From Malacoraja senta (lineage: Eukaryota), in NCBI GenBank assembly GCA_038087875.1, contig CM075995.1:2544001-2608000 (forward strand): DNA of 64,000 bases. Direction: 5' to 3'. Below, one piece after another: positions 2,551 to 59,388 of this stretch (positions within the stretch are counted from its first letter, which is position 1; each line of letters begins with the position of its first letter). A program made the translations under genes and the position numbers. The notes beneath the pieces were generated by a model, which did no database searches, was not told where the DNA came from, and saw nothing but the letters and a program-made list of their open reading frames with translations.

Positions 2551-5500
2551 AGAGCGGCTCCTCGTTTGAACTACGTAAAACACCATGGATTGCAATCACA
2601 TTACTGATACTGAATAGAATCTCTAACAACCCACTACTGGAAATATCGGACCAGACTTTTCCTGAGCACTGGACTACACCTTTACTTCTAGAAAACACCT
2701 TCGAAGACCGGGTGAGTTTGTTCCAATTTGTTATTCAGTCATCTTGTATGTCTACAGCAATGGAAGGGAGAATCCTGACTAAAATTAATTTAAGACCAAT
2801 GACTTATTCTTTCATAATTATCATGCTTGCTGGATACGTAGCATTAAATCCCGGCCTTTACCAACCCAAATACCCGTGCATGGTGTGCAGCAAGGCAGTG
2901 GTCAACAGGCAATAGAATGTGAGGAATGTGACTCGTGGTTTCACACAAACTGTATTGGCATGAATGAACACATTTATAACGTGCTTGTCGAGCATCTGTC
3001 GTACTCATGGGTGTGCTGCAACTGTGGGCTCCCCAATTTTGATTCTTCATTTTTTTAGCCACGCAAGCATTAATTTGTCAAACAGCTTAGAATATCTCAA
3101 CATATCTGCAGACTCTGACGTTGTACCTAGTCTTGACTCAGCTTCACCTATCCCTAGGACATCTAGTCCGATAGTAGACCGTGATCAGCACGAGTCTGAA
3201 AAAAGCAAACACGGTGGTAATAAAAACTCCGGGGCCAAGTCGAAGCCTAAGAGGATGAAGTTTGGTCATAGTAAACAAGAAACTTTTAACATTCTTAATC
3301 TCAATTGCCAGAGCATTAGAGCAAAGAAGGCAGAATTCCAGGCTCTTATAGACCAGGAAAACCCAGACATAATAATCGGTACAGAATCTTGGTTGAACAA
3401 AGACATTGCCGCAGGTGACATTTTTCCAACATTCTACCAGGTGTTTAGAAAAGACAGGAAAGGGGACTCTCGTGGGGTTCTATTCATCGCTATTTGTATA
3501 TTGCTACTGAAGAAAAAGATCTTGATGCAAACTGCGAGGTGCTGTGGGTTAGCATTCATATAAAGGGGCTAAAGCCTACATACATCAGGGCATTTTACCG
3601 CCCTCCATCGTCAGGACAGGAACATTTAAGAGAACTTGAAGCTTCTTTATCCATGATTCCGAAATCTGCTTCTGTATGGCTACTCTGCTATTTTAATCTC
3701 CCTGATATAGACTGGTCCAGCAATTCTCTTCGTACTGGGGGAAGAAATACCGCATGTTGCAAGATTATGTTGGATTTGGCCAATGATTTCAACCTCACTC
3801 AAATGGTTGATAAGCCCACTAGAGACAGAAATATACTTGACGTGTTTTGTCAGCCATCCCTCCTTTGTAGAAAGTTGCAATGTGACATCAGGCATAAGGG
3901 ACCATGATGCTGTTATTTTCTAAGCCAAGATGACAGCCAAAGCAGACCACTGAGAAGGAAGATTTTCCTCTACAAAAAGGCAGATTTCTCTTCCATAGAT
4001 GAACATATCAGAATTTAATGAGAAATTAACAGGAGATTATGTGGCAGCAACAGACATAAACACGCTGTGTTTAGATTTTAAACAAGTTCTTGTCAGGGCC
4101 ATGGACTGTTTTATTCCTTCAAAAATGTGTTCCATCAGATATAATTTACCGTGGGTAAATTCATCAATTAGGCAATTAAGAAAAAACAAAGGCTTTATAA
4201 TAGAGCAAGAAAATCTGGGTCAACTTCCCCATGGACAGATTTTAAGAAATGTCGGCGTTCAATTGACAGACAAATCAGGAAAGCGCATCAAGAATACATC
4301 CATAGGTACACAAAAATGCTGGAGAAACTCAGCGGGTGCAGCAGCATCTATGGAGCAAAGGAAATAGGCAACGTTTCGGGCTGAAACCCTTCTTCAAACT
4401 GATAGGGGGTGGGGAGAAGAAAGGAAAAAAGGTGGAGGAGGAGCCCGAGGGCTGGGGGATGGGAGGAGACAACCAGAGGGCTGATGAAGGGGAGGAGACA
4501 GCAAGGGCTAGCAAAATTGAGAGAATTCAATGTTCATGCCCCCAGGATGTAGACTGCCCAAGCAGAATATGAAGTGCATTTCCTCCAATTTCCGGTGTTG
4601 ACACAAAGCCTTTCTGGAATTACATCAAGAAAATGAGCCAGGAAGTATTTGGCATCTCAAGCCTTACATCGATGGGGCGGACAGTTTCTTTGGCAGCAGA
4701 CAAGGCCGAAGTGTTAAACCAGCAGTTTTGTTTGTTTTTTACTGAAGAAAACCTAGATGAATTCCCGTCATTGAACTCACAACAAACTCCAAAAATTGCA
4801 GATCTTAAGGTAACAATGAACGGGATGCAGAAATTATTGGAAGAAATAAAACCAAAGAAGGCATCAGGGCCAGACCAGATACCAGCCAGTTTTAAAGAAT
4901 TGTGTCACAAGCTTAGCTCCAGTCTTCCAAAAGATGTTTCAAAAGTCTGTGGTTTGTGGAGAACTCCCAGAAGATTGGCTGAATGCTAACATTTTCCCCA
5001 TCTATAAAAAAGGAGATAGGATAAATCCTGCAAATTATCGCCCAGTTCCACTTACCTCCATACCATGATTCTCGAACATATAGTCCACCGACATATTATG
5101 GACCATATTGACTTCCACATATTAACAAACCACCAACATGGCTTTAGACAGGGTCGATCATGTGAAACCCTACTGGCGGGACTCATCGATGATCTAGCCA
5201 GGTCACTCGATAACAAGGGTCAGACTGACCTGATTATATTAGATTATATCAGTAAGGCTTTTGATAAGGTTCCCCATAAGCGGCTCCTGTACAAGCTCAA
5301 CCATGTAGGAATAGACGGCAACCTCTTAAAATGGATTGAGATCTTTTTGACAAGGAGACACCAGCGAGTTCTCTTGGAGGGAGAGACGTCTATTGAAACT
5401 TCTGTGACATCAGGTGTACCACAGGGGACTGTCATGGGTCCATTGCTCTTCCTACTGTATATCAATGACATTTCAAATGCAGGTTCGTCCAGAGTTCAAC

Positions 5501-6409
5501 TCTTCGCAGATGATGCCATCATTTATAGAGAGATTAAAACACCAGAAGGCAGCTTGTCCTTACAGAAGGATCTGGATGCTCTCTGTGAGTGGGGAAAAAC
5601 CTGGCAGATGTCATTCAATACAACCAAATGTCATACCATGCATGTCTCACACAAGACTAAACCACTTTTATCGGAATACAACATGGGTAGCCATACATTG
5701 CTTGCTGTCGACCATCACCCATATCTAGGAGTCGAATTAAGCAAAGATTTAAGTTGGGCGACGCATATTAGTCAAGTGTCTAACAAAGCAAATAGAACTC
5801 TCGGCCTACTCAAAAGAAATGTTCACGCATGTAGTACATCCGTCAAAGAGAATGCCTACAAGTCCTTGGTCAGGCCCAAATTGGAGTATTGTGGAGCCGT
5901 ATGGGATCCTTTCAACAACAACAACAAGATCACCCTAGAGAAAGTACAACGCCGAGCAGCCCGCTTTGTATGTAATGACTACAAGCGCAAATCAAGCGTG
6001 AATAATATGCTGACTTCCCTCGGATGGGATACCCTAGAGCTCCGCAAAATCAGGCTAAGACTTATTGCAATTTACAGAGATTCACAAAATCAAATCTCCC
6101 GTCATCCCAGAGCACCAACTGCTGTGAAACAAGACAAAATAACGGTCCCTACATCATCAACTCCCTAAATTTCAATAAACGTTGCTACCAATATTCCCTT
6201 TACCCAAGGACGATAAGGGAATGGAATATGTTACCACCCCTCACACGTGCTGCTCCCGATGTTGTCATTTAAAAAGGGGATTGAGCAACTAGATCTCCTC
6301 AACTTGGTCAAAAAGGCCCACTTCAAAATGTAATCACTACTCTACTCACTCCGACCTGCACAAGATAACCACTGATGAGGTGTTTGCGCAGTAATCAACC
6401 AGAACCAGA
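2551..6409 (+). mobile_element. Near-full-length degenerate CR1-group LINE of invertebrate type: 2A-like motif, PHD finger, APE endonuclease, RT
   Basis: PHD CMVC..CEEC..HTNC..WVCCNC. EN motifs LNCQSIRAK, IGTESWL, FYRPP. RT motifs QHGF, KAFDKV, GVPQGTVMGP, FADD (ORF 5065-6168). (AACCAG)n tail. 3-bp duplication 'act' at 2548-2550 and 6410-6412. Several frameshifts. Confidence 0.9.
4304..4600 (-). mobile_element. Penelope-like terminal fragment nested in the PHD LINE, with a variant hammerhead motif at about 4366-4400
   Basis: Reverse complement reads ttgaagaagggtttcagcccgaaacgttgcc and includes the end of the GIY-YIG ORF; homologous to 58627-59388. Confidence 0.8.
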
Positions 6410-6447
6410 ACTTTGCTGGCTTTACCTTGCACTAAACATTATTCCCT

Positions 6448-8660: not shown

Positions 8661-8664
8661 CTCG

Positions 8665-12317: not shown

Positions 12318-12670
12318 CCATCTGGACTTGCACCTTTTTCTCCCCTCCCACTCCATTCCTTCCTCTGGCTTTGCAATTCGCAACTCTTCAATTATTTTGT
12401 CTCACACCATCTGTTTTAATCTCTAGCCTTTTTTCCAACCATCTACCTAAGAAACCCCCCTCTCACCTACGTTCATCTATGCTTTGACCTGCTTCTTCTC
12501 TCTATCAGCTTTTATTTCACCCAATCCCCTGAAATCACTCTGAAGAGGGGTCACGACCCGAAAACATCACCGATCCATGTTCTCCAGAAATGCTGCCTGA
12601 CCCATCAAGTTTCTTCAGCACTTTGGGTCCTTTTTTTGTCAACCAGCATCTGGAATTCCTTGTTTCTACT
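12318..12670 (+). mobile_element. Penelope-like terminal (pLTR) fragment with a degenerate hammerhead at about 12537-12572
   Basis: ctgaagaggggtcacgacccgaaaacatcacc followed by the conserved ...atgctgcctgaccc...ccagcatctg tail. Confidence 0.75.
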
Positions 12671-14748: not shown

Positions 14749-15464
14749 TGATATTGAGTGCTTCACGAGCTGCTCTCATCCAGACAAGTGATGACTATTT
14801 CATCGGATTTCTGAGTTCGTCAAGTTCATATACGGTCCAATTCTAATCACAATCCAGTAATGCAAAACAAAGGTGTGGTTATTTATGACACATCTTGAAA
14901 TTATGAAAATTCAGAATTAATTTTGCCAAACAACTCTGAAAATGAAACAAAATGTCAGTCATTTTGCAACTCAATAACCTATTGAAGTGGAAGAGTGGGT
15001 GAGTCTAGTACCAGAGGCCATAACCTCAGAATAAAAGGACGTATCTTTAGAAAGGAGATGAGAAGGAATTTCTTTGGTTAGAGGGTAGTGAATCTGTGGA
15101 ATTCAGTGCCACAGACGGATGTGGAGGCCAAGTTAATGGATATTCCATGGCGGATTCTTGATTAGAACGGGTGTCAGGGGTTACAGGGTGAAGCCAGGAG
15201 AATGGGGTTGCGAGGGAACGATAGATCAGCCATGATTGAATGGCAGAGTAGACTTGATGGGCCGAATGGCCCCTTCTTCGCCTAGAATTTATCGTTAATT
15301 GTGGAATTGTGAATATTACCTGCAACTTGTTTTAACAGACAAAAAGCCAGAATACACAGAAGTAAATCCAGTAGATCAGAACATTGAACTTTCTTCAGAC
15401 AACTGAATTCGAGGAGTCAGGACTGGTCGATCGTTTCGCTGAACACCTTTGCTCAGCCCGCCTG

Positions 15465-15930
15465 AACCTACCTGAACGGGTTGCTAAACACTTTAATTCT
15501 CCTTCCCATTCCCACACAGGCCTTTCTGCCCTAGGTCTCCTCCAGTCAGAGTGAGGCTAAACGCAAATTGGAGGAACAGCATCTCATATTTGGGCAGCTT
15601 ACAGCCCAGTGGTATGAATATTGATTTCTCTAACTTCAAGTGACTCCGGCATTCCCTCTCTCCCTATCCCTCCCCCACCCAAGTTGCACCGGCTTCTCGT
15701 GTTCACCCAACAAACAGCTAACAATCGCCTGTTTCCTTTATCATCCTTACTTTTTTTGCATATCTTTCATTCATTGTTCTTTATCTCTCTACATCATCGG
15801 CGATATCTCTCGTTTCCCTTTTCCCTAACTAGTCTGAAGAAGGGTCTCGACCCAAAATTGTCACCCATTCCTTCTCTCCAGAGACGCTGCCTGTCCCGCT
15901 GAGTTACTCCAGTATTTTGTGTCTATCTTT
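15465..15930 (+). mobile_element. Penelope-like 3' fragment (end of GIY-YIG ORF plus pLTR with hammerhead motif)
   Basis: VAKHFNSPSHSH...RKLEEQHLI; collinear with 58890-59388. Confidence 0.85.
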
Positions 15931-17651: not shown

Positions 17652-17686
17652 GGGTGACGTTTCGGGTCGAGACCCTTCTTCAGACT
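17652..17686 (-). ncRNA. Minimal type I hammerhead ribozyme motif (PLE-borne), core intact
   Basis: Reverse complement agt-CTGAAGA-a-gggt-ctcg-accc-GAAAC-GTC-accc. Confidence 0.75.
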
Positions 17687-18082: not shown

Positions 18083-18116
18083 GGTCTGAAGAAGGGTCTC
18101 GACCCGAAACGTCACC
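18083..18116 (+). ncRNA. Minimal type I hammerhead ribozyme motif (PLE-borne), core intact
   Basis: ggt-CTGAAGA-a-gggt-ctcg-accc-GAAAC-GTC-acc; stem I GGU/ACC, stem II GGGU/ACCC, palindromic ACGU in place of stem III. Confidence 0.8.
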
Positions 18117-20225
18117 CATTCCTTCTCTCTAGAGTTGCTGCCTGTCCCGCTGAGTTACTCCAGCATTTCGTGTCTATTTTTGGTGTAAACCAACATACGC
18201 AGTTCTTTCCTACAAATAAACAAAACGGCCTCTGGCAGTATGGCTCTAGCTAATTCCAATCATGGGGTCTAGTTTTTTCAAAGTTTTATCCCTCTTTCTT
18301 ATTACTGATCATTATATCACGGTAATCAGTAACCTGCCACATTTCATTCTGGGAAACCCTTCTTCCTTCGGAAGAGAAAGTGATTTGAAAATGGGGTATC
18401 TGGTCGCCAGTCGTCAGGAGACAGAAATGTGGAAGAGAACAGTTTTAGAGCCTTGATCATCGTTACTTTGTTGCATATCTTTCATTTATTTGTTCTATAT
18501 CTCTCTATATCATCGTCGATATCTCGCGTTTCCCTTTCCCCTAACTCCCCCATGTTTCCACTAGTGGGAGAGTCTGAGACGTTCTTTTAGGAAGGAGATG
18601 AGGAATTTCTTTAGTCAGAGGGTGGTGAATCTGTGGAATTCTTTGCCACAAAAGACTGTGGAGGCCAAGTCAATGAATATTTTTTAAGGCAGAGATGGAT
18701 AGATTCTTGATTAGTACGGATGTCAGGGGTTATGGGGAGAAGGCAGGAGAATGGAGGGAGGGAGAGAATAGATCGGCCATGATTGAATGGCGGACTAGAT
18801 TTGATGGGCCGAATGGCATAATTCTGCTCCTATCACTTATGACTTTATGACTCTCAGTCTGAAGAAGGGTCTCGACCCAAACGTCACCTATTCCTTTTCT
18901 CCAAAGATGCTGCCTAGCCCGCTGAGTTATTCCAGCTTTTTGTGTGCATCTTTGATTTAAACCAGCACCTGCAGTTCCTTCCCACACAGTTTTGGAGGAA
19001 TGCTGCGATCTGAAAGTTGGAGGACTGGGGGAAATTTCAAAGACAGGTGGAGCCAACCCTGTGGGTGGCTGTAAATGTGAGAATGTGAATTTTAATTCAC
19101 ACCAAAGGCAAAATATTGTTATTCTATTGTTGTTTAATTATGTGCATAAAATTGCATTTATCTCACAATTAATTTCTTTCATCTTTGACGAATGTGATTT
19201 TTTTAATTGTTTTGACATTCAAAACATTTTTTTAATGAATAGTTTGACCTTGTGTAAGACTTCTCGAATTTAGTACTCTATTTAACATCTGAGCATCAGC
19301 TTTAAGTTTTACTCTTAACAAAGATAAATCTCAATTTCTCCATCTCCACCACATCTACTCCTAAGATAAAGATTTCCATTCTCGGACATTCTCGCTGGAG
19401 TTTAGAAGGTTGAGGGGGGACCTCATTGAAACTTACAGAATAATGAAAGGCATTAGATAGAGTGGATGTGGAAAGGATGTTTCCACTGGTGGGAGAGGTC
19501 ATAGCCTCAGAATTAAAGGGCGCTCTTTTAGAAAGGAGGTGAGGAGGAACTTCTTAAGTCAGAGGGTAGTTAATCTGTGGAACTCATCGCCACAGAGGGT
19601 TGTGGAGGCCAAGTCAGTGGATATTTTTCAGGCAGAGCGAGACAAATTCTTGATTAGAACGGGTGTCAAGGGTTATGGAGAGAAGGCAGGAAAATTGGAT
19701 TAGGAGGCAGAGATCGGCCTGGTGAATGGTGGAGTAGACTCGATGGGCCGAATGGCCTAATTCTACTCTTATAACTTGTGAACGTGTCATCCAAGATGTC
19801 TTTGTTTAGTAAACATGGTTTCCCCATCTGCTGTGAGGGGGAAATGGGGAATGGGGTTAGGGGGGGAAATGATAGATCAGCCATGATTGAATGGTGAAGT
19901 AGACTTGATGGGCCGAATGGCCTAATTCTGCTTCTATCACTTATGAACTGTGGGAGATAGATCCCCCACCCACATTTCCTCTGTTTCTCGAGTTCTGCTC
20001 TCAATCCCCCCTATGTGGATGGAACAAAGATAGGGTTCCCCTGGATAGACACAAAATGCTGGAGTAACTCAGCAGGTTAGGCAGCATCTCTGGAGAGAAG
20101 TAATGGGTGACCTTTCAGGTCGAGACTCTTCTTCAGACTGTGAGTCACGAGAGAGGGAGACTAAAAATATGGACGGGTAAGGTGTGAAAATAACAGACCA
20201 AAGCAGGCAAATCTAAGGAAATGTA

Positions 20226-20405
20226 TGTAGACAAAAATGCTGGAGAAACTCAGCGGGTGAGGCAGCATCTCTGGAGAGAAGGAATAGGTGACGTTTCCTT
20301 TGTCACCTATTCCTTCGCTCCATAGATGCTGCCTCACCCGCTGAGTTTCTCAAGCATTTTTGTCTACCTTCGATTTTTCCAGCATCTGCAGTTCTTTCTT
20401 AAACA
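20226..20405. mobile_element. Foldback non-autonomous PLE derivative
   Basis: About 66-bp inverted arms (20227-20292 and 20302-20367); 12-bp TSD taaggaaatgta at 20214-20225 and 20406-20417. Confidence 0.85.
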
Positions 20406-33913: not shown

Positions 33914-33948
33914 TGTCTGAAGAAGGGTCTCGACCCGAAACGTCACCC
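33914..33948 (+). ncRNA. Minimal type I hammerhead ribozyme motif (PLE-borne), core intact
   Basis: tgt-CTGAAGA-a-gggtctcgaccc-GAAAC-GTC-accc. Confidence 0.75.
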
Positions 33949-41919: not shown

Positions 41920-44244
41920 TTACAGCACCAGAGACCCGGGTTCGATGCCGACTATGGGTGATGTCTGTATGGAGTTTGTATGTTCTCCCTGTGACTGCGT
42001 GTTTTTTCTCCAGGTGCTTTGGTTCACACCCACATTCCCAAGACGTGCAGATTTGTAGGTTAATTCACTTCTGTAAATTGTCCCTAGCGTGTAGGATACA
42101 ACAAGTATATGGGTCGGCACGGACCCGTTGGGCCGAAGGGCCTGTTTTCACAGCCTATCTCTAAACTAAACTAATTTATTCAGGTAACAAAAATGGTTCC
42201 TGATTTAATCTACAATTTCAAACCTAAGGGACCTTTCCAATGTTGCTCTAATTACCTTCTGTGTCTCTAAACTAAGAAGGATGACAATAATCTGATTCCT
42301 TGGTCCCTTTAGGTTTAGGTTTATTGTTGTCAAGTGTACCGAGATACAGAGAAAGCTTTGTATTGCATGCTATTATATCATTTCAGATTTACCATATATA
42401 AATACAAACAAGTCCAACTCAAGTACAATACATAAGCCAAAGGGGAAGATACAGAGTGCAGCATAATAATTCTCAGCATTGTATCAGTTTAGTTTAGTTT
42501 AGAGATACAGCGTGGAAACAGGCCCTTCGGCCCACCAAGTCCGTGCCGACCGGCGATCCCCATACATTAACACTATCCCACGCACTCTGGGGACAATTTA
42601 CACGTACACGAAGCCAATTAACCTACATACCCGTACATCTTTGGAATATGGGAGCAAACCGAAGAGAAACCCCACGGTCACGAGGAGAACGTACAAACTC
42701 CGTACAGACAGCACCTGTAGTCGGAATCGAACCCAGTTCTCCGGCACTGCAAGCTCTGTAAGGCAGCAACTCTCACGCTGTGCCACCGGGCTGCACTGTT
42801 CCTTGGATAAGTTCCTTATCCGTTCCTAGATCAGTTCCTTAGACAAGTCCAATGCCTCAAAGGAGCAGAGGTGAATCATATTAGGTGACTCACGCTGGCT
42901 GAATTAACCTGACTTCATTTAGGATCATTCAGAAGATTGATAACAATGAGGAAGAAGTTGTTCCTGAGTCTGGTGGTGCACACTTTTAAGCTTCTGTACC
43001 CACTGCCCAACAGGAGCAGGGAGTAGGAAGAAATGACCGAGATGGGACAAGTCTTTGATCTTGTTAAAAATAGACACAAAGTGCTGGAGTAACTCAATGG
43101 GTGTGACAATGTCTTTGGAGAATATGGATAGATGACGTTTTGGGTCGGGATTCTTGTTAATGTTGGCTACCTTTCCAAGGCAGCATGAAGTGTAGATGGA
43201 GTCAATGGTGGGAAGTCTGGTCTGTTCTGACTTTGCATTAAACACCATTAACTATTCCTCAGCCCACTTGCCCAGCTGATTAACACTGGGCTGCAATATT
43301 TAATAACACTTTTATAAGATCAGCACTCAGCCTCCTCCCCCTCCAAGAAACAGAGTCCGAGCCTGCCAAACCTCTCCTTACAGCTCAGGCCCTCAAGTCC
43401 TGGCAACATCCTCGTAAAACTTCTCTGTACTCTTTCCAGCTTAATGGCATCTTTCCTATAGCAGGGTTTTAGCAATATGTGTGAATGCAGGCCAGATTGC
43501 TTCAATTAAAATTTCTACATAAAATAAGTCTCTGTGCAAACACAAACAGCTAATTTGGCAGGGCACCTGAGGATAATGGGCATTATTGGAAGCTTGCCTT
43601 AGTTATCAATCTGGGAGGGGAAAAGTCTCGGAAAATAATGAATGAGACCAGGCTGTCTCATTGATTGAATCAATAACTCTGCTTCCCAATTCTACACTTG
43701 GCTTTTTCATTTGTATCTATTATACTGGATTTGTTTGCAGTCACTGAACTTTCCATGTTCATTACATTGGGACAAATGTATTTATCTGTAAATTTTCATG
43801 TCATTATATTGTGGTGCATTTTGCTTCAATTATTCCCCATTGAATTCCCATGTGGAGACAAGATATCATGGTGTAATTATTACAAATAATTTGATAATTC
43901 CAGAAAATGAACTGTGAATGGAAGAGAAATATAAGGCTATGTATTAAAAAAAGTGCATTTATCTTTTACCGAAGCAAAACCAAAAGGCTTGGAACTCATA
44001 GAAGGCACGGCAGCATTTCCAATAACTGCAAAGGAGTTGGTGTTTCAAGCATGGTTTCAACCTCTTCAATGCATCACTTCTGAGTTGCTCTTTCCTTCCA
44101 TATCTTCAGCATTGCAATATTCTGCCATCTCTTTGTTCTTACACTTTTGGCCGCTTGTGTATCCCAATTATCATCATTGCACTGTTCGCAATGTCTTGAG
44201 CCCAAGCTCTGGGCTTTTCTCCCCAACATCTCCCTGTTTCAATT

Positions 44245-44276
<32 letters not shown>

Positions 44277-45226
44277 CCCTTTAAGCAACACCATAAATAT
44301 CTCTTTATTTCCAAGATGTCACACTGTTAAGAAATAAAAACAGAATTCACGAGTTCTGTTATTAAACGCTTCGGTTATGTTTACAGCCAGCACCCGTAGT
44401 CAGGATCAAATCCGAGTCTCTGGCGCTGTGAGGCAGCAACTCTACCGTGTCACCCACTAAATTAAGTAAAAGAATTAATAAAGAAAATACAGCGCTAAAC
44501 AATTTCTTTTTCACACATTATACGAAGCCTAGGGAGTACTAAGAGTAGTCCAAGTAGTTACAGTCTAAGATAAGTAGAGGGTGGCACCACATAGGCAGTA
44601 GAAGCTTGAAGGAATAACTGGTCTTTATTTGTGAAAAACACAAAGTGCTGGAGGAATTCAGTGAGTCAGGCAACACCTGTGCAGGAAATGGACAGATGAT
44701 GTTTCGGATTGGGATCCTTCTTCTCCTTCCTGTCCCATTTTTAACTTTGTAGTTGCGAAGGAAGGAATTTAAATGGCCCAATTTATTCATCATCTCCTTC
44801 TGTCAGCCACCTCCGATCATGTCTGCAGCGTGCAACCTCCGACTGACACACCAAGTCATAAAGCAGGAAAAGGCAACCGAAGCCATCTGTTTGCATGCAC
44901 AAGGTCTGGAGTCCAAGCAGAAGGTCCAGATGGCTGGGCTTAAGTTAGTTCACATTTTGAGCAAAAGATTAATCTTATGGTAAAGTGATCCAAAATGCCA
45001 TGTTAAATTGAACAGATTGCAGTATCTGAACTGAAATCGATGTTCTCTGCTGCTGACAGTTGAAAGGTGGGTGAAGCACATCTACCCCCCATTTACCAGG
45101 CTTAGAGGCGAACCTAAGACTTAAATATACGGTAAATATTAGTCAAGAGTCAAGTGTGTTGAATGTCATATGTGAAATGAAATTCTTACTTGCAGCATTA
45201 TAACAGGCCTGTAAACACATTACACA

Positions 45227-46510
45227 TCTATATAACTAAAAGTCTCATCTTGACAACTTCCTGTCTGCGCTATATATTGATCTTAGAAAAAATGCTGCCC
45301 TATATCGCTATGATTTTTGGCCATCTTATTCAGAGTCCTCCTCCGCTGAGGCAGCCCCGAGGATTTTTCCGATCGATGAAAAATCAAAAAGTTATGAATG
45401 TTTCAAAAATCTTGAGATTAGCTGATTGGTCCTCTTGCCTGTCAATCACCACGATGACGGTAACGCCCCCTCCGGTGGGGGGCAGGACTATAAAACCCCA
45501 GATGCCTGGACGTGAGACAGTCACTCTGGAAGATCGCGAGGGAGAGTCCACAATGCAATGAAATTGAATATGGAGGCCTGCACTATGCTTGAAATAGAAA
45601 CATAGAAACTAGGTGCAGGAGGAGGCCATTCGGCCCTTCGAGTCAGCACCGCCATTCATTGTGATCATGGCTGATCGTCCCCAATCAATAACCCGTGCCT
45701 GCCTTCTCGCCATATCCCTTGATTCCACTGGCCCCTAGAGCTCTATCTAACTCTCTCTTAAATCCATCCAGTGATTTGGCCTCCACTGCCCTCTGTGACA
45801 GGGAATTCCACAAATTCACAACTCTCTGGGTGAAAAAGTTTTTTCTCACCTCAGTCTTAAATGGCCTCCCCTTTATTCTAAGACTGTGGCCCCTGGTTCT
45901 GGACTCGCCCAAATGCTATGAAATTGAATGTGGTGGCCTGCACTCTGCTTGAAATGCTATGAAATTGAATGTGGTGGCCTGCACTCTGCTTGAAATGCTA
46001 TGAAATTGAATGTGGTGGCCTGCACTCTGCTTGAAATGCTATGAAATTGAATGTGGTGGCCTGCACTCTGCTTGAAATGCTATGAAATTGAATGTGGTGG
46101 CCTGCACTCTGCTTGAAATGCTATGAAATTGAATGTGGTGGCCTGCACTCTGCTTGAAATGCTATGAAATTGAATGTGGTGGCCTGCACTCTGCTTGAAA
46201 TGCTATGAAATTGAATGTGGTGGCACTGCACTCTGCTTGAAATGGAATTTCAAGGAATAACCGTGAGTGAACAGCCAGCCCACCAGGCCTGAGTGACTGA
46301 GCTGCCAGCCCAAGAATCAATTTGGCCCACAATGTCCATACTAGCCCACTGGAAACCAGTCCCTTCGGCCCACGCCCATACTATCCCTCCAGAAAGCCCC
46401 CCCCCGCCCACTGGCCACCAATATTGGAATTGGTGGAGAGTTGGAATATTGCGTTGGGGGACCAGCCCTCCCGTGTGAACATGGGACCCAACGGGTCCCA
46501 CTTAGTCTAG
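45227..46510 (+). mobile_element. Non-autonomous Helitron, unit 1 (contains a minisatellite and a CR1 insertion)
   Basis: a|TCTATATAACTAAAA start; hairpin tgggaccc-aac-gggtccca (46482-46500) then CTAG|t; no TSD. Confidence 0.85.
45911..46240 (+). repeat. 41-bp minisatellite, 8 near-perfect copies, plus a degenerate copy at about 45552-45594
   Basis: Unit aaatgctatgaaattgaatgtggtggcctgcactctgcttg. Confidence 0.97.
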
Positions 46511-47192
46511 TATATTACTAAAACTCTAATCTTGTTCGTTAGCATGTCCTTGAGTCTGTCTGAAGTCTGATCCAGAAACTACGCCAAATGGTACACGATA
46601 CCGCTACAATTTTTGGACCACCTTACTCACCATTGTCCTGTGGTGTGGTGTATCGTTTTGTTCAGATTGATGGTATATTTTATGTTATTCACATTTTAAA
46701 CTTTACAAAATCCAGTTTGAGAAAAATCACTGGAACTTGCACTGACAGTTAGCAGCTATGACGTCACAATGGGATCTCATTTACATAAACTGCCCGTCAA
46801 TAGTGTTCCACACCACAATGGGATCTCATACACATGAAAAAAACAGCAGCTTCCTCAACTCCCTTGCCCTGCCACTGCCCGTTACAATGTTACAAATGAC
46901 TGGACACTGAGTCCTGTCATTTCTAACATTGTAACGGGCAGGGGCAGGGCAAGGGAATTGGATTTTTTTAAGTGAAAAGTTAGTGAATTTTTTAAAGTTT
47001 AAAAAGAGGGAGGGTGAAGAGGAGGGGGAGGGAGTGCTTGGGATGAGGGGAAATGAGCTGCGTCTGCGCAGTTGGGAGCTATGGGTGAGTGGTGGAATAT
47101 TGCGTTGGTGGAACGTGTTGCTTTGGGGGAACGGATGAGTGGTGGAATATTGCGTTGGGGGAACGGGACCCAATGGGTTCCACTTGTTCTAG
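46511..47192 (+). mobile_element. Non-autonomous Helitron, unit 2, head-to-tail with unit 1
   Basis: tatattactaaaactctaatcttg 5' end homologous to unit 1; hairpin gggaccc-aat-gggttcc then CTAG|t. Confidence 0.82.
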
Positions 47193-50100
47193 TATCATAT
47201 ATAATAAACAGAAGCAAATTCTAGGCGGCAAGGTGGCGTAGCGGTAGAACTACTGTCTTACTGCGCCAGAGATCTGGGTTCGATCCTGACTATGGGTGCT
47301 TGTCTGTACGGAGTTTGTTCGTTCTCCCCGTGACATGCATAGGTTTCTCCGAGATCTTCTGTTTCCCCCCACTCTCCAAAGACGTACAGGTTTGTAGGTT
47401 CATTGGCTTGGTATAAATGTAAAACAGTCTCTAGTGCCTGTAGGGTAGTGTTAATGTGCAGGGAACGCTGGTTAGCGCGGACTCGGTGGGCCGTGGGGCT
47501 TGTTTCCGCGTTGTTTCTCTAAAACTAAATGCAAACTTAAAGAATTTTTTTTTTTATTAGACGCCGTGTACAAAAGTATAAACCGCGGCATATGACATAA
47601 TACATTTATTGTATAGCTTCAATTTTTAATTTTAGCTAAAGATGAGAAAGAAGAAGAGAGAAAAAGCAAGAGAGAGAGAAAGTGATGGTGCAAGAATGTG
47701 TGGAGTAACTTAATGGGTAAGGCAACTTTATAGAACATGGAGAGGTGATGTTTCGGGTCGGGTCCCTTCCTCAAACAAACGTCACTTATCCACGTTCTCC
47801 AGAGATGCTACCTGACCTACCAAGTTACTCCAGCAATTTGTGTCCTTTTTTTTGTGAACCAGCATCTGCAGTTCCTTGTTTCTACAAAGACAGACAACTG
47901 AAGTTTACAGTTGAGTTAGTGTTGTGCAGTGTTCAATGGCCTGACGCTTGATGAAAATAAACTATTCTAGAAACCCGGTAGTCACTGTTTTCAAACTCCT
48001 ATACCCTGTACCTGATGGTACGAGTGAAATGAGAGCGTGGCTGGGGTGATGTGAGTTTATGACGATATTGGCTGCCTTTTTGAGGTGGAGCCTCCTTTTG
48101 ATCCCTTCAATGGTGGGGAGGTCAATACCTGAGATGGACCAGACAGTGTCTACCCCTCTCTGTAATCTCCTTCATTCCTGCGAGCTTGAGCTGCTGTACC
48201 CAGACCAGGAGACTATCAGTCAGTATGCTCTCTACCGTGCCACTGCACAAGTTCAAGAGAATATTCGCCGATATACCAAATCTCAATTTTCTAAGGAAGT
48301 AGAGACATTGAAGGCTTTTCGTTGTGACTGCATGGTCCAGGGCACATATTTAGAGACATCCACACCTAGGACCTCTCTCTACCACCGACCTGTTGGTGAA
48401 GACAGGTTCATGCATCCTTAGCTTTCCTGTTCTAAAGTCAATAATCAGTTCCTTGGTCTTACTGATGTTGAGCGCAAGATTATAGTTCTGACACATTCAA
48501 TCAGACAAGCAATCTCCCTCCTACACGCTGACTAATTATTACCCGCTGTTCATCCAACAATTTACATGGGAATAGAGTCGAGCAGGGGGTTGAGCACGCA
48601 GCCTTGAGGTGCTCCTGTGCTGATGGTTATCGAGGAGGAAGTGTTGTCGCCGATTCCTACTGCTTGTGGTCTGCTGATGAGGAAGTCGAGGAACAAGTTG
48701 CATAGGAATGAGCAGAGACCCAGTTCCCTGAGTTTGACAACAAGTTTGAAGGGGGTGACAGTGTTGAATTCCGAGCTGTAGCCGCTTAACAACTGCGTGT
48801 ACATGTGTATTCATGTGTGTATATATTTATATAATGGTATATGGACACACTGATCTGTTCTGTATTCATGCCTACTATGTTCTGGTGTGCTGAAGCAAAG
48901 CTAGGACATCATTGTTCTATCAGGGACACATGACAATAAACTCTCTTGATCTTGAACATGTTCTTATTGTCCAGGTGGTCCACAGCTGAGTGGAGAGCCA
49001 GCGAGGTTGTATCCCCCTTTTTGTATCGTCGTTTCCCTTATCCCTAACCAGTCTGAAGAAGGGTCTCGACCCAAAACGTCACCCATTCCTTCTCTCCAGA
49101 GATGCTGCCTGTTACTCCAGCTTTTTGTGTCTATCCCCCTTTTTTCTATTGTGGCGTTAGGCAAAGTGTTCTGGGTCCAGATCCTTGCTATGGTTGGAGT
49201 TAATATACGTCATGACCAAACTTTCAAAGCACTTCATAATTCATTGATTATAAATAATTTATCCTGTTACAGTTACCGTACTCCCCAACTAAATGCAGGT
49301 TTTAGAGGCTTTTAGATAGGCACATGGAAGTGCGGGGAATACAGAGAAATGGATCATGTACAGGCAGATGAGATCAGTTTAACTTGGCATCATGTTCTAC
49401 ATTGTGGGCTGAAGGGCCTGTTACTGTGCTGTACTGTTTAATGTGCTATGTTGTCAGATGGGGCATCTTGGACAAGTTGGGCCAAAGGTCTAGTTTCCAT
49501 GCTGTATGTCTCTAACTTCGATTCTATTGAAAACTAAATAAAATAGACATGAGCTCGTTCCATACAAGACTTCTCGGAATTCATTGCCACAGACGGCCGT
49601 GGAAGCCAAGTCAATGGATATTTTTAAGGCGGAGATTGACAGATTCTTGATTAGTACGGGTGTCAAGGGTTATGGGGAGGAGGCAGGAGAATAGGTTTGA
49701 GAGTGAAAGATAGATCAGCCACGATTGAATGGCAGACTTGATGGGCCGGATGGCCTAATTCTGCTCCTGGAATTTATGAACTTAATCTCACTCCTGAAAG
49801 GAGTTAATTATATGACTGACATTGAATATACCACAAAAAAAAAAACATGGTCCCAGCATAAGAAGCCAGCTCTAATACTGGTCTGAACGACATAAATACA
49901 AGATTTGGAAATCAATAGGGTGAAGTCATTACCCATCCTCGTCGGATGACAGCTACATTTCATCAGCACTAAAAATTGCACATGTATAGCATCTTTTATT
50001 CGGAAGAAGTCCCAAGTCACCGAGATTTACTATCCCAATGTTTAAGAAACAGTTAGACAGGTACATGGATAGACAATAGACAATAGGTGCAGGAGTAGGC

Positions 50101-52589
50101 TGTTCGGCCCTTCGAGCCAGCACCGCCATTCAATGTGATCATGGCTGATGGTTTGACAGGCTGATTCATGGCTGATAGGACAGGTTTGGAGGGATTTGGA
50201 CCAAGCACAGGCAGGTGGGACTAGTGTAGATGGGACATGTTGGCCGGTGTGGGCAAGCTGGGCTGAAGGACCTGTTTCCATGATGTATCACTCTATGACT
50301 CTATTTAAACGATCACTGAGTCAAGAAGGAAACAATAGCAACTGGCAAACGGGCAGACTTTTTCTTGTATAAAATACCGAGTCATTATTTTACACTACTA
50401 GCGATGGCGTGATGTTAATCATTAGTGAACTAAATGGGTTACTTCAATGAAATCAGTGACAGACCTGTGCTCCTTCTAAAGTCCTGGATCAAATGTTCGA
50501 TCCATCGTAGCGTGTATTTAATAGGGTCCCAGGAGCCTATTACAGTAAATGCATTTCAAATTGTATTTTTTGGATTCATTTATACCTGGCTGATAAATCC
50601 AAAGCTGTCTAATCAAGGTCTCGGGATGAAATACTGATGCTACTTCTGACTCAATCAAAACATTGAAGTTTCTTTTCAGCACTTGCAAATTTATTAAAAA
50701 GAGCAGCTGTTCTCTTGCCTATAATGAATATATTTCACAATTTGCTGTGGCTTCAAAACTCACCCAGCGAAGCAGTGAACTTTAACATATTCACATCAAA
50801 AGAGCTTTATCCACTTTTTACTGGGGCTTCGCTGAGGTTTATGATGGGATTTTTACGAATTAAATTGAACGATTAGAGCAAAAGAAGTCATAACAATTCT
50901 CGAAACTTCATTTCCATATGTTGTAAAATACCTCCCACCTGGCCTGTACATTGAAGACTACGACAACTCTAAATAAATCTACAACATTCAGCACAGCACA
51001 ATGCAAACAAAATGCTGGTGAGATCGGAGCAGCTGGTAGAGCTGCTGCCTGACAGAGCCAGAGACCAGGGTACAATCTTGGCCTCGAGTGCAGTTTGAAC
51101 GTTTTCCCTGAGACTGTGTCGGTTTCCTCTGACTGCTCCGGTTTCGTCCCCCTCCATCCTAAAGAAGTGCAGGTTAACTGGCTGTTGTAAATTGTCCCCA
51201 GTGTGTAGATGGGTGGTAGAATCTGGGGGGGGGGGGAAATTGTTAACAATATGAAGAGAATAAAGTTGGATTAGATTACTGTAGGAGTGGTGTAAATGGG
51301 TGGTTGATGGTCAGTGTGGCATACATAGATACATAGAATAGATACATAGAAATTAGGTGCAGGAGTAGGCCATTCGGCCCTTCGAGCCTGCACCGCCATT
51401 CAATACGATCATGGCTGATCATCCAACTCAGTATCCCGTACCTGCCTTCTCTCCATACCCCCTGATCCCTTTAGCCACAAGGGCCACATCTAATTCCCTC
51501 TTAAATATAGCCGTGCTGTATCTCCCCATCCAAATACATATTTGATCAAATCTTCACCTTTTGTTCTGCTCACCTCTATCAGTTCTGAGCAAATTTTCAA
51601 AATCCACTGTTGTGTTACATAAGTGATAGGAGCAGAATTAGGACGTTCGGCCCATCAATTCTACTCCGCTATTCCATCACGGTTGATCTATCTCTTCCTC
51701 CTAACCCCATTCTCCTGCGTTCTCACTGACACTCGTACTAATCAAAAATCTACCTATCACTGCCGTAAAAATATCCATTGACATCCTCGACAGCCTTCTG
51801 TGGCAAAGAATTCCACAGATTCACCACCCTCTGACTAAAGAAAGTTCCTAAAAGAACGTCATTTAATTCTGAGGCTATGACTTCTAGTCCTAGATTCTCC
51901 CACTGGTGGAAAAATCCTCTGCACATCCACTCTATCCGAGCCTTTCACTATTTGTTAAGTTTCAATGAGGCCCCCCCTCATTCTTCTAAACTCCAACCAG
52001 TACAGGCCCAGTGCCGTCAAATGCTCATGAGTTAACCCATTCATTCCTGGGATCATTCTCGTAAACCTCCTCCGGACCCTCTCCAGAGCCAGCACCTCCT
52101 TTCTGAGATATGGTGCCCAAAATTGCTCACTATACTCCAAATGCGGCCTGACACATGCCTTACATCCCTGTTTTTGTATTCTAGCTCTTGAAATAAATGC
52201 TAGCATTGCATTTGCCTTCCTTACTAACGATTCAAATTACTACAATTGAAACTGGGTTGTAAATTGCAAATTAAGTGCACAAGGTAGTTAAGTCACGTGA
52301 TCTAGATAGCACGAACAGTTGCAGAACGACAAGCTGGTAAAAGCCATTTTAATAGATGCAATTATTAAAAGAGAACTACGACACAAAGAGCTGTCTCCGT
52401 TCTGTATATCTTGAAGATAGACTTCAAGGTGACACGACATAACATCCACATCATCCTATCAACTTTTTTTCTTTATCTTCAACATTTGTCTATTTGTTCT
52501 ACTATTCTAATGTTGCCCAACCTCCTCAACCACACTCCTATGGTGGGGAATACAGAGGAAAGACCTATAATAAGGCACGTAATATGTAA

Positions 52590-52718
52590 GGGACAAGTGT
52601 ACGCTTGAAACAAGGACTGTTCAACATAGCCGACAAAAAGCAGGCATAGCTGGGGCCCATACAAGTAAGTGCCCATGGCTACACCTTTAACTTGCAGCAA
52701 ACTGTAGCTGTGGCCCAT
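52590..52718 (-). mobile_element. Penelope-like RT fragment
   Basis: LQVKGVAMGT...LFVGYVEQSLFQAY resembles the PLE RT GxAMG motif region. Confidence 0.7.
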
Positions 52719-55700
52719 CGAGGAAGGACATTCTTGCTCTTGAGGGAGTGCAGCATAGGTTCACATGGTTAATTCCCGGGATGGCGGGACTGTCATATGT
52801 TGAGAGAATGGAGCGGCTGGGCATGTATACACTGGAATTTAAAAGGCTGAGAGGGGATCTTATTGAAACATATAAGATTATTAAGCGATTGGTCATGCTA
52901 GAGGCAGGAAACATGTTCCCAATGTTGGGGGTGTCCAGAACCAGGGGCCACAGTTTAAGAATAAGGGGTAGGCCATTTAGAACGGAGATGAGGAAAAACT
53001 TTTTTACCCAGAGAGGTGTGAATCTGTGGAATTCTCTGCCTCAGAAGGCAGTGGAGGCCGGTTCTCTGGATGCTTTCAAGAGAGAGTTAGATAGAGCACT
53101 TAAAATTAGCGGAGTCAGAAGATATGGTGAGAAGGCAGGAACGAGGTACTGAATGTGGAGGATCAGCTATGATCACAGTGAAAGGCGGTGCTGGCTCAAA
53201 GGGCTGAATGGCCTACTACTGCACCTATTGTCTATTGAGTGTCCATGGCTACCCCTTTAACTTTAACACTTTTTCTCTTACAGCTTCAATTATGCCAATT
53301 GATACAACGTATCTGACCAGTTTATTTTAGTTTGCAGATACAGAAACAGGGCCTTTCAAGTCGTTCATTTGTCACATACGCATACGAGATGTGCAGTGAA
53401 ATGAAAAGTGGCAATGCCTGCGGAATGTGCAAAAAATTACAAAAACAGAATAGAACAGAATCAGAAATTACATATTGGTGGGACAAAAAAACAGCAATTT
53501 TAAAAAGACACACTCAACAGTAGAGATGAGGTCCTCCGAGTCCATTCCAACCAGTCATCCCCGTACACTAGCACTATCCTACACCCTCGGGACAACTGAC
53601 AAATCTTACTGAAGCCAATTAACCTACAGACTTGTACGTCTTGCAGGAGTAGGAATGTGGGAGGAAACCGGAAAATCCAGAGGAAACCCATGCGGTCACG
53701 GAGAGAACGTAGAAACTCCGTACAGCATCCATAGTTGGGATCGAACCCGGTTCTCTGGCGCTGTAAGGCAGCCAATCTACCGCTGCATCACCGTGCCACC
53801 TCTACCTTTGGCAAAGTTAATTTGACTTTTTTTTTCTACTTCAGCAAAAGAAATTAACAGTTAAACTGAAGATAATGCAATGGTCCAGAATGCAATGCCC
53901 CACTGAAGATAATGCAATGGTCCAGAATGCTTAAGAGCTCAAGTTAGCTGAGCCTGAAGAAGGATCCCAACCTGAAACATCACCCATCCTTTTTCTCCGG
54001 AGTTGCTGCCTGACCCACTGAGTTACTCGAGCACTTTGTGTCTATCTTTAGCTGCAAAGAGGACTGAGTTCGTCTAGTCTGGGACCACAACTTCCTTACA
54101 GACACGGGGTGAAGGGCGTCATGTACATGAGAATCATGTATGTTGGGTTTTCATAGTAACCACATATTACTTCCAAAGTCACTCAAGAAACACAAAAGTG
54201 CAATCTCGTGCCCTGGTGAAAGCTTATAAATCAATGGAGGTTAGACACAAAATGCTGGAGCAACTCAGCGGGACAGGCAGCATCTCTGGAGAGAAGGAAT
54301 GGGTGACGTTTCGATTCGAGACCCTTCTTCAGACAATGGTTCAGCTTCAATGAAACCTTCACTTTGAATGATGGACCCCACCAGATGATAGAACATTGTT
54401 CTGTCGAGACTTTCATCTCGTGCATGGATCTGAAAGGTCAGATTCCACATCAAACCCTATTTCCCTATTTCCAAAAGTGCAGTCTGAACTGCAACCTGAG
54501 AAACATTGTCAGTGAAATGAATATAGAGTCAGTGTTGAAACAGACCCTCCAGCACAACTTGCCCACACCGACCAACATGTCCCATCTACACTAGTCCCAC
54601 TTGCCTGTGTTTGGCCCATATACCTCTAAACCTGTACTATCTATGTACCTGTCTAAATGTTTCTTAAACATTGCTATAGTCCCTGGCTCAACTACCTCCT
54701 CTGGCAGCTCGTTCCATACACCTACCACCCTTTGTGTGAAAAAGTTACCCCTCAGATTCCTATAAAAGTCTTTCTCCCCTCACCTTAAACCCATGTCCAC
54801 TGGTTCCTGATTCCCCTACTCTGGGCAAGAGACTCTGCGTCTACCCCATCTATGTGATGATTGGCTTCAATAGTGGGCGTCCTGACTGTAGCTTATGGTC
54901 TTGCAGGCCTTGCTCCCCAAAATGCAGAACGTAACAAATGGACCAAATAACCTTTCAAGCTTGCTCTACCATTATCAAGCTTCCACTTTCCTGCTTGATC
55001 CCCCTAATTTGGGTCTCCCCTATGCTTCAAAAATCTGGAGGAACTCAGAGGGTCAAGCAACAACTGGTGAACATGTGGAATTCTTTGCCACAGAAGGCTG
55101 TGGAGTCCAAGTCATTGGATATTTTTTAGGGCAGGGATAGTTAGATTCTTGATTAGTACGGGCGTCAGGGGTCATGGGGAGAAGGCAGGAGAATGGGGTT
55201 AGGAGGGAGAGATAGATCAGCCATGATTGAATAGCTGAGTAGACTTGATGGGCCGAATGGACTAATTCTACTCCTATGCCTTATAACCTTCTGACTTTAA
55301 GGTGCGGGGGGGGGAAGATTTAATAGGAACCTGAGGAGTAACTTTTTCACGCAAAGGTGGTGGGTGTATGGAGCAAGTTACCAGAGGAGGTTGATAAGGC
55401 AGGTACTATCGCAATGTTTAAGAAACATTCAGACAGGACAGGTTTGGAGGGATATGGGCCAAACGCAGGCAGGTGGGACATGTTGGCCAGTGTGAGCAGG
55501 TTGGGCCGAAGTGCCTGTTTCCACGCTGTGAGACTCTGTGACTCTATGTTGTAGAGATAATGCACAGAATATGTTTCACGTCAGGATCCTTCTTCAGGCT
55601 GAGAAAGAAGAAAGCTCCCGTCTCGAAACATCGCCTGTCCATTTCCTCCACAGATGTTGCCTGACCCGCTGAGTTCCTCCAGCGTGCTGTGTTTTGGTCA

Positions 55701-58296: not shown

Positions 58297-58626
58297 TATA
58301 CCAAGTATACAAACCCAAGCCAATTAACCTACAAACCTGGACGTCTTTGAAGTGTGGGAGGAAACCGAAGATCTCGGAGAAAACAAACGTGGTCACGGGT
58401 AGATCGTACAAACTCCGTACAGACAGCAGCCGTAGTCGTAATCGAACCCGGATCTCCGGCGCTGCAAGCACTGCAAGGCAGCAACTCTACCACTGCGCAA
58501 CCATGCCGCCCTAAGTGGATGTTTAGCATTTCAAATTCAACAGGAAGTTGCGAAGGGAACGATCTCTGCAGAGGGCGGAAAGGGGTGGAGATGGGAAAAC
58601 TGTTCGCTTTGCAAATCCCTGGTTAA

Positions 58627-59388
58627 TGTCCCTTCCCACCCAAACCACCCCCTCCCTAGTTACCTTCCCCTGCAACCGCAGGAGATGCAACACCTGTCCC
58701 TATATCTCCTCCCTCGACACTGTCCAGGGACCTCGACAGTCCTTTCACGTTAGGCAGAGGTTCACTTGCACCTCCTCCAACCTCATCTACTGCATCTGTT
58801 GTTCAAGATGTGGACTCTTATACATCGGCGAGACCAAATGTAGACTGGGCGATTGTTTCGCTTCGTTTAGTCCGCCTGGACCCACCTGATCACCTGGTCG
58901 CTAAACACTTTAATTCCCCTTCCCATTCCCACACTGACCTTTCTGTCCGAGGCCTCCTCCATTGTCAGAGTGAGGCTAATCGCAAATTGTAGGAACAGCA
59001 TCTCATATTTCGCTCGGACAGCTTACAACCAGTGGTATGAATATTGATTTCTCTAACTTCAAGTAACCCCTGCACTCCCTCTCTCTCCATCCCTCCCTCC
59101 CCAACCCAATGCGCACCAGGTTCCCGTTCTCACCCAGCAAACAGCTAACAATGGCCTGTTTCCTTTATCATCATTACTTTTTTGCATATCTTTCATTCAT
59201 TTGTTCTATGTTTCTCCACATCACTGTCTATATCCCTCATTTTCCTTTCCCCTGACTGGTCTGAAGATGGGTCTTGACCCGAAACATCATCCATTCCTTT
59301 TCTCCAGAGATGCTGCCTGTCCCGCTGAGTTACTCAGCATTTTGTGTCTATCTTAGTTTTAAACTAGCATCTATAGTTCCTTCCTACT
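58627..59388 (+). mobile_element. Penelope-like element 3' part: degenerate GIY-YIG endonuclease plus pLTR with hammerhead motif (about 59258-59292)
   Basis: PCNRRRCNTCP...FTCTSSNLIYCICCSRCGLLYIGETK...VAKHFN; ggtctgaagatgggtcttgacccgaaacatc. Confidence 0.9.

What the first reader, a model, noticed from the sequence alone, without database searches (positions are those of the whole stretch)
4304..59388. More than 20 minimal hammerhead-ribozyme motifs dispersed by Penelope-like termini within one host gene
Seen: a recurring motif CTGAAGA-A-GGGT-CTCG-ACCC-GAAAC-GTC-ACC. It is intact at 17652-17686(-), 18083-18116(+) and 33914-33948(+), and variant at about 4370, 12540, 15833, 18858, 20105, 27260, 27460, 28505, 29053, 31595, 34420, 39776, 40353, 40437, 44696, 47743, 49051, 53953, 54301, 55575 and 59258. 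At 15465 and 58627 it lies just downstream of a GIY-YIG ORF. Stem II shows compensatory variation (gggt/accc, gggtt/gccc, ggat/acct). Established: PLEs carry minimal type I hammerheads (CUGANGA...GAAA, cleavage after GUC) whose palindromic stem III requires dimerisation. Inference: minus-strand copies such as 17652 are sense to the CDKAL1 pre-mRNA, and pairs of them could cleave the intron co-transcriptionally.
Basis: partly seen in the sequence, partly recalled or inferred. Interest (0 to 1): 0.8.

Follow-up and report, generated by a model that had tools for sequence, protein, structure and literature searches.

The report
Penelope retrotransposon tails with hammerhead motifs
The motifs are the mostly decayed tail ends of a very abundant Penelope-like jumping gene in a skate-like genome, each carrying a small hammerhead RNA motif already known from such elements, and they likely do nothing to the CDKAL1 gene they sit in.

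Summary
All 24 listed motifs are there (26 found, chance about 0). They are the first 34 bases of a 90-130-base terminal module of a Neptune-type Penelope-like element. Intact 4-kb copies carry the module on both sides of a 1,212-1,238-aa RT/GIY-YIG ORF. The motif fits the published minimal hammerhead and is conserved between source lineages (82% against 40% for the adjacent UTR).

The genome holds roughly 440,000 motif-bearing copies, about 54,000 intact, so this gene is not special. Only 3 window copies are intact, and one is sense to CDKAL1. After insertion the catalytic core decays at the neutral CpG rate. Stem II shows wobble, not double compensatory change. Intact sense copies are not depleted in introns (11 against 13), and no intact sense pair exists here, so intron cleavage is not supported. 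Twelve copies lie beyond an assembly gap and are not shown to be in CDKAL1.

One lead is new to me: short copies start within about 5 bases of an exact initiator motif at the hammerhead's first base, as run-off copies of uncut RNA would. This scan noted the same kind before in other shark or ray genomes.

The parts
17653..17686 (-). Intact minimal hammerhead motif, the only intact copy sense to CDKAL1; its module runs to about 17599
18083..18116 (+). Intact motif (predicted cut between 18113 and 18114); module to about 18210 with tail; short inverted piece at 18042-18068
33914..33947 (+). Intact motif, antisense to CDKAL1
58629..59387 (+). 5'-truncated element: broken Zn-linker/GIY-YIG remnant (58629-59066), 191-base pyrimidine-rich UTR, motif at 59258 (G16.2>A) and tail
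15421..15929 (+). 5'-truncated element: GIY-YIG C-terminal remnant, 187-base UTR, motif at 15831 (G12>A, C15.2>T)
4308..4594 (-). 5'-truncated element of the youngest subfamily (UUCG-type loop, GUU triplet): endonuclease end, 107-base UTR, motif at 4367-4400 (C3>T)
12537..12661 (+). Decayed module (G16.2>A) with upstream UTR
18856..18985 (+). Decayed module (G12 lost)
20044..20401 (.). Decayed minus module (20047-20138) and a head-to-head fold-back pair (20228-20297 minus, 20302-20401 plus) that lacks the CUGANGA box
27198..27489 (.). Fold-back pair (27198-27285 minus, 27283-27390 plus) and a decayed minus module (27401-27488); the closest sense pair in the window, both broken
28410..29144 (.). 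Module lacking the CUGANGA box (28448-28530 minus) and a fold-back pair (28993-29048 minus, 29053-29144 plus)
31569..31630 (-). Decayed module (C15.2>T)
34360..34451 (-). Decayed module (G12>A, G16.2>A)
39724..55694 (.). Eleven further decayed motifs beyond the gap (39777-, 40354-, 40435+, 43131-, 44695-, 47744-, 49050+, 53951+, 54302-, 55567-, 55602+); none passes the descriptor
25165..25345 (-). CDKAL1 (tRNA methylthiotransferase) coding exon, about residues 348-408 of the skate protein P0003
39045..39244 (.). 200-N assembly gap; beyond it membership in CDKAL1 is not shown

Best explanation
The 26 motifs are the 5' ends of a 90-130-base terminal module left by insertions of a Neptune-type Penelope-like retrotransposon; the motif has the form of the known minimal hammerhead, likely serves only the source element, and decays like neutral sequence once inserted.

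SHOWN. Full-length elements read module - 166 or 167 bases to the ATG - 1,212-1,238-aa ORF (RT, Cys linker, GIY-YIG) - pyrimidine-rich UTR - module, about 4 kb, also in tandem. Most genomic copies are 5'-truncated stubs or head-to-head fold-backs, some with target-site duplications. The core is invariant between subfamilies while the UTR beside it is not.

INFERRED FROM THE LITERATURE. In the source transcript the two flanking motifs would pair through the ACGU palindrome, probably with help from the element's protein, and cut after GUC or GUU. Reverse transcription would start about 95 or 130 bases into the module.

INFERRED HERE (about 40%). The stubs are run-off copies of uncut RNA that starts at an initiator motif at the hammerhead's first base. 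Lone copies in CDKAL1 introns are predicted not to cut the pre-mRNA.
For: ELEMENT. Motif follows the GIY-YIG end in 83 of 360 full-span copies, a set enriched for long elements. Module on both sides of the element in 4 of 4 long elements, 3 of them with an intact ORF, one a tandem array with a 3,997-base unit. Pfam GIY-YIG is only weak (E 0.0008-0.007, below cut-off), but relatives carry RVT_1 and GIY-YIG. 177 of 545 hits are in head-to-head pairs. Duplications of 8 or more bases in 18 of 68 edge-truncated young copies against 22 of 400 shuffled pairs.

LINEAGE CONSERVATION. Median identity between UTR groups: motif 0.82, downstream 58 bases 0.78, ORF end 0.73, last 34 UTR bases 0.56, whole UTR 0.40. 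Subfamily majorities differ at 5 motif positions, none in the fixed boxes, against 16 of 53 downstream positions; the changes keep U-G pairs and the NUH triplet.

NEUTRAL DECAY. C11.1 0.23, G12 0.26, C15.2 0.23, G16.2 0.22; control CpG 0.21-0.22; unrelated SINE CpG 0.23. Intact fraction falls from 24 of 42 in the youngest to 0 of 18 in the oldest cluster.

NO HOST EFFECT. 178 sense against 183 antisense modules and 11 against 13 intact in 882 kb within two genes. No pile of read starts or ends at the cut site in 4 of 4 RNA runs, apparently from a related species. The active dimer is predicted at -6 to -11 kcal/mol against -21 to -22 for the preferred dimer fold.

PAPERS. PMC4209133 (parts 1-2 of 4 read); PMC11167929 (parts 1-2 of 4).
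Against: No cleavage was measured, and Rfam gave no hammerhead match at E up to 10. Helix I is only 2 pairs in most copies, and there is no double-sided covariation. The downstream 58 bases are nearly as conserved as the motif, so some constraint may not be ribozyme constraint. Non-CpG core adenines vary less than downstream ones (0.024 against 0.096). Sequence context explains only part of this (relative rates 0.55-0.63 for three of the A-run contexts in a SINE); I read the rest as selection in source lineages, but weak selection after insertion is not excluded. In CDKAL1 alone intact copies were 6 sense against 11 antisense (p=0.33), and the unassigned stretch beyond the gap was 3 minus against 9 plus. 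The RNA libraries were not built to capture 5'-OH or cyclic-phosphate ends, and the second gene's span rests on Pfam exon hits across three gaps.
Confidence: 0.85

Rival explanations
1. Pairs of sense copies fold into dimeric hammerheads and cut the CDKAL1 intron during transcription.
For: One intact sense copy lies in a mapped intron. CDKAL1 alone leans antisense for intact copies, 6 against 11. Xenopus tandem retrozymes are reported as under-represented in introns (10.64898/2026.07.22.740005, passages).
Against: No intact sense pair closer than 60 kb in the mapped introns downstream of the window's exon. Combined 11 against 13. G12 was broken less often in sense (22 of 116) than in antisense copies (36 of 116; p=0.05, one of 8 tests), the wrong direction. 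A single minimal motif showed no activity and dimers low activity (PMC4209133). The lizard motif needs the element's protein (PMC11167929).
Confidence: 0.04
2. The conserved sequence is mainly an internal RNA polymerase II core promoter and protein-binding signal of the element, and the hammerhead fold is vestigial or not used.
For: TCA+1GTC matches the initiator TCA+1GTY exactly, CGACC at +18 to +22 matches CGANC, and +28 to +32 matches RGWYV at 4 of 5 (consensus from PMC5580651 passages). C-1 and A+1 are kept in 91% and 89% of 138 UTR-bearing copies although helix I does not pair them. Hammerhead mutants did not impair insertion in vitro in the lizard element. D. virilis Penelope has an internal promoter in its pLTR (PMC2377424, section 15 and passages).
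Against: All 15 fixed hammerhead positions, the extra base after A9, the stem and the palindrome are kept across subfamilies, and changes keep pairing. The second MTE contact (CGG at +27 to +29) is not matched, and the youngest subfamily breaks CGANC. These consensus motifs come from flies and mammals.
Confidence: 0.1
3. The short copies are a separate non-autonomous family (SINE-like or retrozyme-like) that copies itself, rather than truncation products of the long element.
For: Sharp shared 5' edge and own target-site duplications.
Against: Stubs carry the same subfamily variants as long copies and grade continuously into them. No tandem of complete motifs is in the window. One long element also starts at the same edge (L171/L186).
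Confidence: 0.07

Closest known systems
Minimal hammerheads (min-HHR) in the pLTRs of metazoan Penelope-like elements (PMC4209133)
   Same: CUGANGA and GAAA boxes, extra base between 9 and 10.1, G10.1-C11.1, palindromic 15.2-16.2 with no helix III, position in both flanking repeats, mostly solitary copies from truncated elements.
   Different: Helix II 4 pairs and helix I 2 pairs (schistosome 7-8 and 4-5). About 54,000 intact copies estimated here (24,000-83,000) against about 4,000 in coelacanth and 9,000 in Xenopus, by different descriptors. Low, not high, sequence heterogeneity. No double-sided covariation.
Poseidon element of Anolis carolinensis (PAc; PMC11167929)
   Same: Hammerhead upstream of two insertion end points that define a 30-40-base tail; no RNA-seq ends at the cut site.
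   Different: In PAc the ORF starts inside the hammerhead; here the ATG is 166-167 bases downstream. The element here has the Cys linker of Neptune type.
Neptune-clade endonuclease-positive Penelope-like elements (PMC8557442, passages)
   Same: RT then C-terminal GIY-YIG, CX2-5CxxC linker, partial tandems, inverted truncated copy, tail.
   Different: ORF of 1,212-1,238 aa with a long Pro-rich repetitive N-terminal part; clade not placed on a tree here.
Non-LTR retrozymes (10.64898/2026.07.22.740005, passages)
   Same: Type I hammerhead derived from pLTRs, in vertebrates including one chondrichthyan.
   Different: Those are tandem units with at least two complete motifs; here copies are solitary or head-to-head.

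Membership tests
min-HHR of metazoan PLEs | CUGANGA and GAAA boxes, extra base after A9, G10.1-C11.1, NUH cut triplet | tested here: met
   All subfamily majorities; 3 window copies and 44 in 1.064 Mb pass the descriptor, 0 in reversed sequence
min-HHR of metazoan PLEs | No helix III; palindromic 15.1-16.1 allowing a dimer | tested here: met
   ACGU in every subfamily majority
min-HHR of metazoan PLEs | Helix I closing the core | tested here: inconclusive
   Only 2 pairs (U-A or U-G, G-C), as in the D. virilis variant; the paper's descriptor figure is not held
min-HHR of metazoan PLEs | Located in both flanking repeats of a PLE | tested here: met
   L183, L184, L185, L186
min-HHR of metazoan PLEs | Compensatory changes in helix II (reported support, not part of the descriptor) | tested here: not met
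   Only one-sided U-A to U-G between subfamilies; double-sided changes 7, 0, 1, 2 of 270
min-HHR of metazoan PLEs | Self-cleavage as a dimer | not testable with these tools
   Needs an in vitro assay; predicted active dimer is not the preferred fold
EN+ Penelope-like element, Neptune type | Single ORF with RT and C-terminal GIY-YIG, CX2-5CxxC linker | tested here: met
   ADKG, CNRKRCNTC, CIRCSRC and IYIGET in 4 of 4 long ORFs, RYIDDC in 3 of 4; relatives with RVT_1 and GIY-YIG
EN+ Penelope-like element, Neptune type | Partial tandems, inverted 5'-truncated copy, optional tail | tested here: met
EN+ Penelope-like element, Neptune type | RT phylogeny places it in Neptune rather than Nematis | not tested
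   No named reference proteins were available
Non-LTR retrozymes | Tandem repeat with two or more consecutive complete hammerheads | tested here: not met
   35 modules in the window, none in such a tandem
Inr/MTE/DPE core promoter | Initiator TCA+1GTY, CGANC at +18 to +22, RGWYV at +28 to +32 | tested here: inconclusive
   Initiator exact, CGANC exact except in the youngest subfamily, DPE 4 of 5, CGG +27 to +29 not matched
Inr/MTE/DPE core promoter | Capped transcripts start at A+1 | not testable with these tools
   No cap-selected data; one search shows no start pile

The most novel reading that the evidence does not exclude
The element's transcript begins at the first base of the hammerhead: one 34-base stretch is both core promoter and ribozyme, so cleavage at +31/+32 would remove the element's own cap. 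The very many short copies are then run-off cDNAs of capped, uncut RNA, and their 5' ends form a genomic record showing that uncut RNA, not cleaved RNA, is the usual template in vivo. Among 212 young non-inverted copies 68 end at the edge and 27 at +5 to +10, but only 4 at +31/+32.
Probability: 0.35. Interest if true: 0.55.

Novelty: new member of a known kind. Interest (0 to 1): 0.27.

Why it matters
As found, it adds a very high copy number to a motif class described in 2014 and shows that intronic copies can be tolerated without detectable selection. What the hammerhead does for Penelope-like elements is still open (PMC8557442 passage: function unclear). This family offers young intact elements and a very large number of 5' junctions, which make that question testable if the start-site reading holds.

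Tried and rejected
Rfam scan of the window: no hammerhead family at E up to 10, only hairpin matches to microRNA models from fold-backs. Monomer folding of 4 stretches: z-scores -0.40 to +0.21, no signal.

Coding explanation for the module's conservation: rejected by eye, because the ATG lies 166-167 bases downstream and subfamilies put stops into the module's frames. Seven apparent upstream pLTRs were independent insertions; true ones were found later.

Cap-derived G before A+1. Genome-wide the preceding base is C 80,139, G 10,341, A 8,013, T 6,596, so G/A is 1.29 against 0.74-0.96 in background. Locally G was 17 of 34 non-C cases. But fold-back junctions inflate G, and an independent 550 kb gave 0 G of 4. 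Kept as a hint only.

Search for the CDKAL1 exon of residues 303-347: not found with this query. RNA holder search: no RNA holder listed. Strand skew of single-cell reads (about 6 to 1 over the motif) cannot be read without knowing the library chemistry. Whether the window beyond the gap holds exons of another gene stays untested.

Literature searches: none of the 4-term or 5-term searches returned a paper on these motifs in skates or sharks (3 unrelated listings) or on a start site at a PLE hammerhead (0). One search gave nothing usable, so the cap-G idea is recalled, not cited. Supplements of the cited papers (including the alignment and consensus figures of PMC4209133) were not seen and may list chondrichthyan motifs.
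Full report
Observation. A profile of the motif plus the 60 bases behind it finds 35 modules in the window. Only three pass a strict descriptor (both boxes, G10.1-C11.1, four stem II pairs, ACGU, NUH, two helix I pairs): 17653-, 18083+ and 33914+. Rfam reports no hammerhead.

Host gene. The frame at 25066-25371 (minus) holds an exon of CDKAL1; the best named hits are skate and ray proteins. The next exon lies 20 kb left of the window, so 1-25164 is intron. Upstream, a 200-N gap sits at 39045-39244. The exon for residues 303-347 was not found, and earlier exons lie 0.5-1.2 Mb away in an order and orientation that do not fit one gene. So 14 of 26 motifs are on the contig piece that carries the exon and 12 are unassigned.

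Abundance. One exact 31-base form occurs 13,276 times in the 1.94-Gb genome, and a 15-base core 105,089 times. In 40 evenly spaced 10-kb samples there were 158 modules, 90 covering the motif and 11 intact. That scales to about 770,000 (bootstrap 555,000-988,000), 440,000 (321,000-570,000) and 54,000 (24,000-83,000). The window is therefore ordinary for this genome.

What the motif belongs to. At 59258 and 15831 the motif follows a broken GIY-YIG remnant and a pyrimidine-rich UTR of about 190 bases. The remnant has 48,094 first-look candidates in the genome. Walking upstream gave intact elements: module, ATG 166-167 bases later, an ORF of 1,212-1,238 residues with RT motifs, a CX4CxxC linker and GIY-YIG, a UTR and a second module, 3.9-4.0 kb apart, once as a tandem array. 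Of 25 loci with the ORF's N-terminal part, 14 reach the 5' module; 12 of these carry the UTR before it, one folds back at +1 and one starts at the edge. The linker marks Neptune or Nematis type (PMC8557442, passages). Head-to-head pairs (177 of 545 hits), a tail of about 35 bases and target-site duplications (18 of 68 against 22 of 400) are the known insertion marks.

Is it a hammerhead? It has every feature that PMC4209133 lists for minimal motifs. Between two UTR groups (51 and 27 of 83 copies; 5 left out for UTR length) median identity is 0.82 in the motif, 0.78 behind it, 0.73 at the ORF end and 0.40 in the UTR, and the edge falls at the motif's first bases. Helix I has only two pairs, and the predicted active dimer (-6 to -11 kcal/mol) loses to a duplex of the near-palindromic stem II (-21 to -22). 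That fits the protein-assisted behaviour of the lizard motif (PMC11167929).

Does it act on the host? After insertion the four CpG positions of the core and stem, including catalytic G12, change at 0.22-0.26 per copy in 338 copies, like the control CpG (0.21-0.22) and like CpG in an unrelated SINE (0.23). Non-CpG core adenines are calmer than downstream ones (0.024 against 0.096); context explains part of this and the rest is not resolved. In 332 kb assigned to CDKAL1 there are 92 sense and 92 antisense modules, 6 and 11 intact. In 550 kb inside a second long gene defined by six same-strand laminin-G exon hits there are 86 and 91, 5 and 2 intact. Together 11 against 13, p=0.84; the interval for the sense share is 0.26-0.67, so a mild deficit is not excluded. 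The window has no intact sense pair. About 25,000-29,000 reads per run fell on one intact copy, and none of the 4 runs showed a pile of starts or ends at the cut site; these libraries are a weak test.

The 5' edge. Among 212 young non-inverted copies with an intact 3' end, 50 start between +11 and +59, 27 at +5 to +10, 68 at the edge with unrelated flank, and 67 run on into the UTR; 4 start at +31/+32. In 190 copies with unrelated or folded-back flank, agreement with the element falls from 0.83 at +3 to 0.64 at +1, 0.43 at -1 and -2, and background at -3. An independent 39 copies repeat this. The edge is an exact initiator TCA+1GTC, with CGACC at +18 to +22 and a 4-of-5 DPE match (consensus from PMC5580651). 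C-1 and A+1 are conserved although helix I does not pair them. Penelope has an internal pLTR promoter (PMC2377424), and the lizard element starts reverse transcription at internal tail sites on unprocessed RNA. A transcript starting at +1 and primed at +95 or +130 would give exactly these stubs. Rivals are enzyme drop-off on entering the pyrimidine tract and annealing at the near-palindromic CAGTCTG. The cap-G sign is equivocal. I give this reading about 35-40%.

Verdict. Real motifs of a known kind, ordinary for this genome, with no support for intron cleavage. Four earlier notes of this scan describe the same kind in other shark or ray genomes; they agree with my reading, which was written before that look-up, and are not counted as evidence.

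Noticed in passing
window 35602-38913 (+): Open frame of 1,103 aa with endonuclease/phosphatase and RVT_1 domains, a young CR1-like LINE (name recalled).
   Followed up: partly
window 56896-57850 (-): Tc1-type transposase in two frames (HTH_Tnp_Tc3_2, DDE_3); a 343-aa open copy lies in L144:6754-7782.
   Followed up: partly
window 58315-58510 and about 18 other places: A second dispersed repeat of about 190 bases, SINE-like (label recalled), used here as the mutation-context control.
   Followed up: partly
G000:C19:1324109-2569368: CDKAL1 exons are out of order and on both strands, and one exon was not found; this looks like a scaffolding error.
   Followed up: partly
L021:196-416 (-); reads joining 18165 back to 18126: Head-to-tail repeats of about 66 bases made of the module from GAAAC onward, without the CUGANGA half; such repeats are present in RNA reads.
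   Followed up: no
L183, L184, L185: Many near-identical full-length elements with 1,200-aa open frames and tandem arrays, so the family was active very recently.
   Followed up: partly
introns of CDKAL1 and G000:C2:80640001-81310000: G12 is broken less often in sense than in antisense copies (22 against 36 of 116; p=0.05, one of 8 tests); unexplained, possibly chance or strand-biased mutation.
   Followed up: no
window 46844-46970: A strong hairpin unrelated to the module, matching several microRNA models below their cut-offs.
   Followed up: no
P0123, P0127, P0229: Database proteins named as host genes are largely this element's ORF, so they look like annotation fusions.
   Followed up: no
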